A stretch of 64,000 nt of DNA from Escherichia coli (GTDB lineage: Bacteria > Pseudomonadota > Gammaproteobacteria > Enterobacterales > Enterobacteriaceae), in NCBI RefSeq assembly GCF_016026235.1, contig NZ_CP065613.1. One strand, 5' to 3'. Position 1 is the stretch's first letter, and the number at the start of each line of letters is the position of its first letter. The position numbers and the translations under genes were made by a program. Positions 7,350 to 7,760 of this stretch are shown here, piece after piece. Below the pieces are notes generated by a model that did no database searches, had not been told where the DNA came from, and saw only the letters and a list, made by a program, of their open reading frames with translations.

Positions 7350-7760
7350 CCATGCCGGAGGCGACGCTGCGCGTCTTGTCCGGCCTACGAGAGTGTAGGT
7401 CGGATAAGGCGTTAACGCCGCATCCGACAATCGGCGCACCATGCCGGAGGCGACGCTGCGCGTCTTGTCCGGCCTACGAGAGTGTAGGTTGGATAAGGCG
7501 TTAACGCCGCATCCGACATTCGGCGCACCATGCCGGAGGCGACGCTTACGCGTCTTGTCCGGCCTACGGAAATGTAGGTCGGATAAGGCGTTTGCGCCGC
7601 ATCCGACAATCGGCGCACCCATGCCGGAGGCGACGCTGCGCGTCTTGTCCGGCCTACGGGGATCCAGGTCGGATAAGGCGTTTACGCCGCATCCGACAAT
7701 CTGTACGTGAACAGGAATAAATCTATGTCGGCCGGATAAGGCGGAGCCGCTCTCCGGCAA
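7350..7760. repeat. Cluster of about four tandem ~90-bp BIME/REP units plus an extra REP
   Basis: Repeated unit atgccggaggcgacgctgcgcgtcttgtccggcctacg...ggataaggcgtt.acgccgcatccgaca with small variations, period about 89-90 bp. Confidence 0.85.

What the first reader, a model, noticed from the sequence alone, without database searches (positions are those of the whole stretch)
7350..7760. Four tandem BIME/REP units between gabT and gabP
A highly regular ~90-bp periodic array of REP palindromes sits between two cotranscribed genes. Such arrays can stabilise upstream mRNA and bind gyrase or IHF, and here they also create several spurious overlapping ORFs in the track (for example 7293..7760 and 7441..7710).
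Basis: seen in the sequence. Interest (0 to 1): 0.2.

Follow-up and report, generated by a model that had tools for sequence, protein, structure and literature searches.

The report
BIME-2 REP array between gabT and gabP
This is an ordinary, well-known kind of E. coli repeat (a BIME-2 cluster of REP palindromes) in the spacer between two co-transcribed GABA-utilisation genes; its only unusual feature is four tandem units where most strains have one.

Summary
Window 7350-7701 holds 3.9 tandem copies of an 89-90-bp unit (92% matches). A fifth, degenerate REP follows at 7725-7760. The array lies in the 506-bp spacer between gabT (6061-7341) and gabP (7848-9248) of an E. coli chromosome that is 100% identical to strain FDAARGOS_943.

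Each unit is a y-type REP, a 6-8-nt S linker, an inverted z2-type REP and a 12-13-nt l linker. That is the BIME-2 grammar, and it matches K-12 REP325. Three z2-l-y modules pass the Rfam naRNA4 gathering score, but so does an unrelated BIME after proX, so the model detects generic BIME modules.

The linkers hold no IHF site, so the array is not BIME-1/RIB. No intrinsic terminator or promoter-like site was found on the coding strand. The overlapping ORFs are translation artefacts.

Among 5,426 complete E. coli genomes:
- 7 have four units, 26 three, 5 two, and 16 a deletion variant.
- About 4,029 have one unit.
- About 1,342 carry no REP here; the two sampled have a BoxC pair instead.

The most likely role is inferred, not shown: a local RNA-level modulator that blocks 3' exonucleases and partly attenuates read-through into gabP, and a gyrase-preferred DNA site. 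This is already known biology and of low interest.

The parts
6061..7341 (+). gabT (4-aminobutyrate--2-oxoglutarate transaminase); stop codon TAG at 7339-7341
   Evidence: ORF list; RefSeq annotation of the 100%-identical NZ_CP065615.1
7353..7388 (+). Unit 1 y-type REP (TGCCGGAGGCGACGC-TGC-GCGTCTTGTCCGGCCTAC). The stem starts at 7354, 12 nt after the gabT stop codon
   Evidence: RNA hairpin -19.5 kcal/mol
7395..7429 (+). Unit 1 inverted z2-type REP (GTAGGTCGGATAAGGCG-TTAA-CGCCGCATCCGACA). S linker GAGAGT at 7389-7394; l linker at 7430-7441
   Evidence: -17.4 kcal/mol; together with the next y REP it forms Rfam naRNA4 hit 7398-7474, 71.8 bits
7442..7477 (+). Unit 2 y-type REP, identical to the unit 1 y REP
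   Evidence: unit 1 vs unit 2 identical at 78 of 80 positions
7484..7518 (+). Unit 2 inverted z2-type REP (one C-to-T change gives a G-U pair in the stem). S linker GAGAGT at 7478-7483
   Evidence: -15.3 kcal/mol; Rfam hit 7487-7564, 71.6 bits
7531..7567 (+). Unit 3 y-type REP (4-nt loop variant, CTTACG)
   Evidence: -20.7 kcal/mol
7574..7608 (+). Unit 3 inverted z2-type REP. S linker GGAAAT at 7568-7573
   Evidence: Rfam hit 7577-7654, 67.4 bits
7622..7657 (+). Unit 4 y-type REP. Unit 4 is the only unit present in K-12
7664..7698 (+). Unit 4 inverted z2-type REP with the foot tetranucleotide GTAG replaced by CCAG. The S region reads GGGGATCC
   Evidence: -17.4 kcal/mol
7725..7760 (+). Lone fifth REP, degenerate, in the same orientation as the z2 REPs. 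It is separated from unit 4 by a 26-nt unique linker and is not part of the periodic array
   Evidence: family D2, fifth copy; -16.3 kcal/mol; present in K-12 and the other REP-bearing alleles sampled
7761..7847 (+). gabP leader, from about 7780 conserved in all three allele classes; the first ~20 nt are shared only by the REP-bearing alleles. Modest predicted structure in which CUCUC pairs with the GAGAG of the Shine-Dalgarno region
   Evidence: z = -1.95; weak
7848..9248 (+). gabP (GABA permease)
   Evidence: mapped from locus L001 4449-5849; one search shows the ATG at 7848

Best explanation
The feature is a BIME-2 cluster: four tandem units of [y REP, short S linker, inverted z2 REP, l linker], followed by one lone degenerate REP. 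It lies in the transcribed spacer between gabT and gabP of the E. coli csiD-lhgO-gabDTP operon.

Shown here: the anatomy, the family assignment, the location, and the fact that the array is an expanded allele of a locus that has one unit in most strains. The newest step appears to be a duplication of the first unit, because units 1 and 2 are 98% identical while the others are about 90% identical.

Inferred by analogy with K-12 REP325 and other studied REPs: in the polycistronic mRNA the nine hairpins (-15 to -21 kcal/mol each) act locally. They block 3'-to-5' exonucleases and so protect the upstream gabD-gabT segment. They also partly attenuate read-through into gabP, probably with help from Rho. 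More units should therefore push the gabT:gabP ratio upward.

The first hairpin starts 12 nt after the gabT stop codon. That is inside the 15-nt range reported to stall terminating ribosomes and lower upstream translation.

At the DNA level the y REPs are the preferred gyrase cleavage targets of BIME-2. Copy number and linker sequence change by REP-to-REP recombination, slippage, or action of the REP-associated transposase (RAYT).
For: Anatomy. Four y REPs end in CCTAC, four inverted z2 REPs follow (three start with GTAG), and the linkers are 6-8 and 12-13 nt.

Same grammar as REP325 of K-12 (inverted z2, l linker, y, spacer; period 100; 5.8 copies), which Qian et al. label Z2-l-Y (PMC4550694).

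Three modules exceed the Rfam RF02564 gathering score on the transcribed strand: 67-72 bits against 59.5.

The consensus fold of 14 modules gives the two expected hairpins, with two compensatory pairs.

The BIME-2 definition, and copy-number and linker variability between strains, come from PMC3333891. Both are seen at this locus.

Operon context comes from PMC6265302.

No promoter-like site was found on either strand of the spacer, and no intrinsic terminator on the + strand, so gabP most likely depends on read-through.

The REP325 result comes from the preprint 10.64898/2026.03.23.713779. Deleting REP325 raises the downstream gene 8-10-fold and lowers the upstream mRNA at least 3-fold, and termination is partly Rho-dependent. 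[quoted passage not shown]

Gyrase cleavage is enriched in BIME-2, mainly in y REPs (PMC6379681).

The 15-nt stop-codon rule is Liang et al. 2015 as cited in PMC12306157. The 12-nt distance is read directly from the sequence and is kept in all the REP-bearing alleles sampled.
Against: No expression, half-life or 3'-end data for this locus could be found, so every functional step is by analogy.

The same preprint stresses that REP effects depend on context and that REPs do not uniformly lengthen mRNA half-lives.

About a quarter of complete E. coli genomes have no REP at this position, and 74% have only one unit. The four-unit state is therefore dispensable and may be selectively neutral.

The K-12 gabT-gabP BIME was not named among the gyrase-enriched BIME-2 in the searchable text of PMC6379681.
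Confidence: 0.85

Rival explanations
1. The array is a selectively neutral by-product of REP/BIME dynamics (RAYT-mediated amplification, slippage, unequal recombination) and has no measurable effect on gab expression. It is the same object, but without a function.
For: Copy number at the locus ranges from 0 to 4. Four units occur in only 7 of 5,426 genomes, on divergent backgrounds (96.3-100% flank identity), and with different unit orders. About 1,342 genomes lack REPs here. S linkers are hypervariable, one z2 REP has lost its GTAG, and a REP-to-REP deletion allele exists. The preprint reports large variance and no uniform half-life effect of REPs.
Against: The palindromes themselves are strongly conserved while the linkers drift. 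The 12-nt distance from the stop codon is kept in all the REP-bearing alleles sampled. The closest studied homologue of this architecture, REP325, has roughly 10-fold effects on its neighbouring genes.
Confidence: 0.3
2. The units are naRNA4-like small-RNA genes whose transcripts bind HU and bridge REP cruciforms to condense the nucleoid.
For: There are three hits to Rfam RF02564 above the gathering score on the + strand. Qian et al. reported that naRNA4 from REP325 binds HU and condenses DNA (PMC4550694).
Against: The model also scores an unrelated single BIME after proX at 73.5 bits, while true REP325 units score 95-111 bits. It therefore recognises generic z-l-y modules. The 2026 re-examination found that neither deleting nor over-expressing REP325/naRNA4 changed nucleoid size, and it found no REP-REP contacts in Hi-C. 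No independent promoter-like site exists in the spacer.
Confidence: 0.05
3. The array is an IHF-binding RIB/RIP element (BIME-1), the alternative the first reader left open.
For: REPs are present at the 3' end of a gene. There is no evidence specific to this locus.
Against: BIME-1 is a single z1-L-y copy whose long L linker carries the IHF site (PMC3333891). Here the linkers are 6-8 and 12-13 nt, the element is tandem, and WATCAANNNNTTR does not occur in 7300-7860 on either strand.
Confidence: 0.02
4. The region encodes proteins: the 155-aa ORF on the minus strand and/or the 89-aa ORF on the plus strand.
For: The ORFs exist mechanically.
Against: Their translations repeat with the DNA period. 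They have no Pfam match above the curated cut-off. They are not annotated in the identical RefSeq genome. They would disappear or change length with unit number in other strains.
Confidence: 0.01

Closest known systems
BIME-2 clusters of E. coli (Gilson/Bachellier/Hofnung nomenclature; Ton-Hoang et al. 2012, PMC3333891)
   Same: Alternating y and z2 REPs in inverted orientation, with a short S linker and an l-type flanking linker. The units are tandemly amplified and extragenic, and copy number and linker sequence vary between strains at one locus.
   Different: Nothing essential differs. Locus-specific details are the REP stem variant (CCGGAG...GTCCGG instead of CCTGAT...ATCAGG, compensated), the 89-90-bp period, the loss of GTAG in the last z2, and an extra lone REP downstream.
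REP325 / naRNA1-6 between yjdM and yjdN in K-12 (Qian et al. 2015, PMC4550694; Harris et al. 2026 preprint)
   Same: It has the same z2-l-y module in the same orientation relative to transcription, and it sits between two co-transcribed genes. The Rfam naRNA4 model is passed, and the two-hairpin fold is conserved.
   Different: It is a different locus with a different copy number and period (4 units of 90 bp here; 5.8 copies, annotated as 6 repeats, of 100 bp in REP325). The spacer is 6-8 nt against 17 nt, and Rfam scores are lower (67-72 against 95-111 bits). No experimental data exist for the gab array.
REP mRNA stabilisers and REP translational down-regulators (Newbury/Higgins 1987 from my own knowledge; Liang, Rudd and Deutscher 2015 as cited in PMC12306157)
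   Same: The REP hairpins lie inside a polycistronic transcript directly 3' of a coding region, and the first REP is 12 nt from the stop codon (the rule is 15 nt or less).
   Different: This has not been tested for gabT. Here there are nine hairpins rather than the one or two of the studied cases.
BIME-1 / RIB-RIP IHF-binding elements
   Same: They contain a y REP paired with an inverted z-type REP.
   Different: This array has no L linker and no IHF consensus, and it is tandemly repeated. It is not a member of this class.

Membership tests
BIME-2 | Built from y-type and z2-type REPs in alternating (inverted) orientation | tested here: met
   Four y REPs and four inverted z-type REPs alternate. 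The z REPs are 32-33 of 35 identical to the REP325 palindromes that Qian et al. label Z2. The z1-versus-z2 call rests on that comparison; the published consensus figure itself could not be read.
BIME-2 | Imperfect palindrome with internal mismatch and a conserved GTAG/CTAC tetranucleotide at the foot | tested here: met
   All hairpins keep an internal bulge or mismatch. CTAC is present on 4 of 4 y REPs and GTAG on 3 of 4 z2 REPs; unit 4 reads CCAG.
BIME-2 | Short S linker between the two REPs and s/l/r-type flanking linker, not the long L linker | tested here: met
   The tail-to-tail linker is 6-8 nt and the head-to-head linker 12-13 nt.
BIME-2 | Occurs as multiple tandem copies in an extragenic position | tested here: met
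   3.9 copies with period 90, entirely within the gabT-gabP spacer.
BIME-2 | Copy number and linker sequence vary between strains at a given locus | tested here: met
   Alleles with 4, 3, 2 and 1 units and a deletion variant occur among 5,426 genomes. Nine different S-linker variants occur in 12 alleles.
BIME-2 | Cleaved or bound by DNA gyrase in vivo, preferentially in y REPs | not testable with these tools
   This is a literature property (PMC6379681). The locus was not found in the searchable supplements.
BIME-1 / RIB-RIP | Single z1-L-y copy whose L linker carries an IHF site | tested here: not met
   The element is a tandem array with short linkers, and there is no WATCAANNNNTTR in 7300-7860 on either strand.
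Rfam RF02564 naRNA4 | Covariance-model score at or above the gathering threshold (59.5 bits) | tested here: met
   71.8, 71.6 and 67.4 bits on the + strand. The model is not locus-specific: the proX BIME scores 73.5 and REP325 scores 95-111.
Rfam RF02564 naRNA4 | A discrete HU-bound RNA with a role in the nucleoid | not testable with these tools
   The role is contested even for REP325.
REP translational regulators (Liang et al. 2015) | REP begins 15 nt or less after the stop codon of the upstream ORF | tested here: met
   TAG is at 7339-7341 and the first stem base at 7354, leaving 12 nt between. The rule is as quoted in PMC12306157; the original paper was not available.
REP translational regulators (Liang et al. 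2015) | Ribosome stalling, tmRNA tagging and reduced yield of the upstream protein | not testable with these tools
   This needs experiments on GabT.
Intrinsic (Rho-independent) terminator | GC-rich hairpin followed by a U tract on the transcribed strand | tested here: not met
   There is no + strand terminator-like site in 7200-7900. The REP hairpins are followed by linkers, and the fifth REP by an A run.

The most novel reading that the evidence does not exclude
The gabT-gabP spacer is a natural allelic series. It carries either a BoxC pair or 1, 2, 3 or 4 BIME-2 units, with shuffled units and hypervariable S linkers. In this reading, unit number acts as a heritable, protein-neutral dial that sets the ratio of GABA catabolic enzymes (GabD/GabT) to the GABA permease (GabP), and the rare four-unit alleles are independently derived adaptive states rather than drift.
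Probability: 0.15. Interest if true: 0.35.

Novelty: already known. Interest (0 to 1): 0.12.

Why it matters
It matters little as a discovery. REP/BIME-2 arrays, their variable copy number, their gyrase affinity and their effects on neighbouring transcripts are all textbook or recently described.

The modest value is practical, in three ways:
- It explains spurious ORFs and an Rfam 'naRNA4' hit that annotators should not take at face value.
- It documents that this spacer exists in several alternative states in E. coli (BoxC pair, deletion variant, or 1-4 BIME-2 units). That gives a ready-made natural series for testing the recently proposed 'REPs as tunable 3'UTR dials' idea on a σS-dependent, carbon-starvation-induced operon whose regulation has been studied in detail.
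- It shows the first REP is within the reported stall range of the gabT stop codon.

Tried and rejected
- I looked for locus-specific experimental data and found none. No paper in the library combines gabT, gabP and 'repetitive extragenic'. Neither gabT nor gabP appears in the held supplements of the gyrase Topo-Seq paper, RepRanger or the 3'-end mapping paper PMC7815308. PMC6061677 has no held supplements.
- Four papers could not be read: Liang et al. 2015 (PMC4427526), Liang and Deutscher 2016 (PMC4829296) and Schneider et al. 2002 (PMC135471) are not held, and Espeli et al. 2001 has no PMC copy and was not attempted. Their content is cited only second-hand or from my own knowledge.
- BIME-1/IHF reading: rejected.
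- Intrinsic terminator or internal gabP promoter in the spacer: the crude consensus scan found none on the + strand.
- Protein-coding reading of the overlapping ORFs: rejected.
- A CRISPR-like array (regular palindromic repeats) was considered and dismissed by inspection. The 'spacers' are 6-13 nt conserved linkers, and both repeat halves are REPs.
- The K-12 RefSeq record in the collection does not list REP features, so the EcoCyc REP name for this locus could not be retrieved.
- Rfam on the REP-less allele gave only sub-threshold microRNA-type noise on the BoxC palindrome.

Full report
**What is there.** The sequence at 7350-7701 is a tandem array of 3.9 copies of an 89-90-bp unit. It has 92% matches and a TRF score of 588. 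Four copies lie in register with start-to-start spacings of 89, 90 and 90 bp. A further copy of the REP arm lies at 7725-7743.

The array is far from chance:
- The z-type REP core pattern is found 7 times in the 64-kb window, four of them here, against 0.00 expected in dinucleotide shuffles.
- The y-type core is found 3 times, all here, against 0.06 expected.
- The spacer RNA folds 9.5 standard deviations below shuffled controls.

**Context.** A 1,301-bp query around the array (window 6900-8200) is 100% identical to Escherichia coli FDAARGOS_943 (NZ_CP065615.1). RefSeq annotation there gives lhgO, gabD, gabT, gabP and csiR in this order on one strand. In window coordinates gabT is 6061-7341 and gabP is 7848-9248, so the spacer is 506 bp. 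The genes belong to the five-gene csiD-lhgO-gabDTP operon (PMC6265302). A consensus scan finds no promoter-like site on either strand and no hairpin-plus-U-tract terminator on the + strand between 7200 and 7900. The array is therefore most likely transcribed as part of the operon mRNA, and gabP most likely depends on read-through. This is an inference, because the scan is crude.

**Anatomy.** Each unit has four parts:
- a y-type REP in the orientation that ends in CCTAC (TGCCGGAGGCGACGC-loop-GCGTCTTGTCCGGCCTAC), at 7353-7388, 7442-7477, 7531-7567 and 7622-7657;
- a short tail-to-tail linker (GAGAGT, GAGAGT, GGAAAT, GGGGATCC);
- an inverted z-type REP (GTAGGTCGGATAAGGCG-loop-CGCCGCATCCGACA), at 7395-7429, 7484-7518, 7574-7608 and 7664-7698;
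- a 12-13-nt head-to-head linker (ATCGGCGCACCA).

Taken alone as RNA, the hairpins fold at -15.3 to -20.7 kcal/mol and keep the characteristic internal mismatch. The last z REP has CCAG in place of the conserved GTAG. After a 26-nt unique linker comes a fifth, degenerate REP in the same orientation as the z REPs (about 7725-7760; -16.3 kcal/mol).

[quoted passage not shown] BIME-1 is a single z1-L-y copy whose long L linker often carries an IHF site (PMC3333891). Every sequence-level BIME-2 criterion is met here. The BIME-1 criteria are not met: the linkers are short, the element is tandem, and the IHF consensus WATCAANNNNTTR is absent from 7300-7860 on both strands.

I compared the array directly with the reference BIME-2, REP325 of K-12 (yjdM-yjdN spacer, locus L007). 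REP325 has the same grammar (inverted z2, l linker, y, spacer) with a 100-bp period and 5.8 copies, as described by Qian et al. (PMC4550694). An alignment of 14 z2-l-y modules from the gab alleles, REP325 and the proX BIME gives the expected two-hairpin consensus. It contains two pairs where both sides changed and pairing is kept: U-A/C-G/G-C in the z2 stem and G-C/U-A in the y stem.

**The Rfam 'naRNA4' hits.** Three modules (7398-7474, 7487-7564, 7577-7654, + strand) score 71.8, 71.6 and 67.4 bits against RF02564, whose gathering score is 59.5. This confirms the resemblance, but it should not be read as 'naRNA genes'. A single unrelated BIME just after proX (21729-21806) scores 73.5 bits, and genuine REP325 units score 95-111 bits. 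The model therefore recognises generic z-l-y modules. The nucleoid role proposed for naRNA4 was also not reproduced in a 2026 re-examination. That study found REP325 to be a local, partly Rho-dependent attenuator of the downstream gene and a stabiliser of the upstream mRNA (10.64898/2026.03.23.713779).

**Strain comparison.** K-12 has a 237-bp spacer with a single unit that corresponds to unit 4 here. The difference from 506 bp is 269 bp, which equals 89 + 90 + 90.

Across 5,426 complete E. coli genomes, 4,083 have a REP-type spacer. Only 54 contain the unit-to-unit junction z2-l-y. Those 54 are exactly the records in the top-60 list whose hit spans indicate more than one unit:

| Spacer state | Genomes | Hit span (bp) |
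|---|---|---|
| Four units | 7 | about 1301-1304 |
| Three units | 26 | about 1210-1213 |
| Two units | 5 | about 1120-1126 |
| Variant with a REP-to-REP deletion fusing the last z2 to the fifth REP | 16 | 1058 |
| One unit | about 4,029 | about 1032 |
| No REP-type spacer | about 1,342 | about 1105 (sampled records) |

The no-REP class consists of records whose best place covers less than 80% of the query; the sampled ones cover 67%. The two records I read from that class carry a 310-bp allele with no REP. It holds two inverted BoxC/TMECO elements matching the published consensus CCCTCNCCC-N3-6-GGGNGAGGG-N3-GGGNGAGGG (PMC4666352).

Four units is thus the rare maximum at this locus, at 0.13% of genomes.

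I decomposed twelve alleles into units. The palindromes are conserved, but the S linker is hypervariable (GAGAGT, GGAAAT, GGGGATCC, GGGGATTC, AGGTATC, GAGAATCC, GGGGATTCTC, GAAGT, GAAAAT). Unit order also differs between strains: A-A-B-C here and in 2018-05-2CC, but C-C-B-A in XJ34. In this window units 1 and 2 match at 78 of 80 positions, while all other pairs match at 72-74 of 80-81. The fourth unit is therefore most simply a recent duplication of the first. All of this is the behaviour Ton-Hoang et al. describe for BIME-2 and attribute to recombination or amplification, possibly by the REP-associated transposase.

**How it most likely works.** Everything in this section is inferred, not shown.

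As RNA, nine stable hairpins sit in the middle of a polycistronic transcript. By analogy with REP325, they should impede 3'-to-5' decay of the gabD-gabT segment and reduce transcription into gabP. Deleting REP325 raised the downstream gene 8-10-fold and lowered the upstream mRNA at least 3-fold, and REP325 gave a ladder of hairpin-ended RNAs. [quoted passage not shown] More units plausibly give a stronger effect.

The first stem begins 12 nt after the gabT stop codon. This distance is preserved in all the REP-bearing alleles sampled. It lies within the 15-nt range reported to stall terminating ribosomes and lower translation of the upstream gene (Liang et al. 2015, as cited in PMC12306157).

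As DNA, BIME-2 elements are enriched for gyrase cleavage independently of transcription, mainly in y REPs (PMC6379681). Four y REPs would offer four such sites.

Against a strong functional claim, REP effects depend on context, three quarters of strains manage with one unit and a quarter with none, and I found no locus-specific data.

**The ORFs.** ORFs 7293..7760 (-), 7441..7710 (+), 7259..7504 (+) and 7412..7618 (-) exist mechanically. The translations of the two longest repeat with the DNA period. None of the four reaches a Pfam cut-off, and none is annotated in the identical RefSeq genome. They are artefacts of a GC-rich repeat without stop codons.

**Verdict.** The element is a known kind in a known place. 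What is specific to this genome is an uncommon four-unit allele. Interest is low.

Noticed in passing
L005 643-952 and L006 644-953 (gabT-gabP spacer of strains ECO2947 and 14EC047): About 1,342 of 5,426 complete E. coli genomes lack a REP-type spacer between gabT and gabP. The two read here carry an unrelated 310-bp sequence instead. It holds two inverted BoxC/TMECO (potential intrastrand-triplex) elements, nested inside a second 16-nt inverted repeat. Two different repeat families therefore occupy the same operon junction in different strains.
   Followed up: partly
window 7389-7394, 7478-7483, 7568-7573, 7658-7667; loci L008-L016: The S linker next to the CTAC/GTAG feet is hypervariable: nine variants in twelve alleles. 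Unit order is shuffled between strains (A-A-B-C here, C-C-B-A in XJ34). The last z2 REP, which is K-12's only one, has lost the GTAG that the REP transposase requires. This fits cleavage and rejoining at the REP foot, but it was not tested.
   Followed up: partly
L016 (strain Ecol_316 and 15 other records with a 1058-bp hit span): This deletion allele fuses the last inverted z2 REP to the fifth lone REP. It looks like recombination between two REPs in the same orientation.
   Followed up: partly
window 21729-21806 (+): A single z-l-y BIME lies about 10 nt after the stop codon of the ORF that ends at 21719 (probably proX, identified from my own reading of the sequence). It scores 73.5 bits on Rfam naRNA4, higher than the gab units. 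This shows the model is not specific to REP325.
   Followed up: partly
window 49764-49789 (+) and 57071-57096 (-): Two further z-type REP cores lie elsewhere in the window. Their context was not examined.
   Followed up: no
window 29664-29735 (+); 32469-33189 (-): There is a MicA sRNA (83.9 bits) and a cluster of four tRNA genes, three with identical scores spaced about 275 bp apart.
   Followed up: no
window 7761-7847: From about 7780 the gabP leader is conserved across all three spacer allele classes; the first ~20 nt are shared only by the REP-bearing alleles. Its predicted fold pairs CUCUC with the GAGAG of the Shine-Dalgarno region, but the structure signal is weak (z = -1.95).
   Followed up: partly
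L006 1-643 (strain 14EC047): gabT is annotated as a frameshifted pseudogene in this BoxC-allele strain.
   Followed up: no
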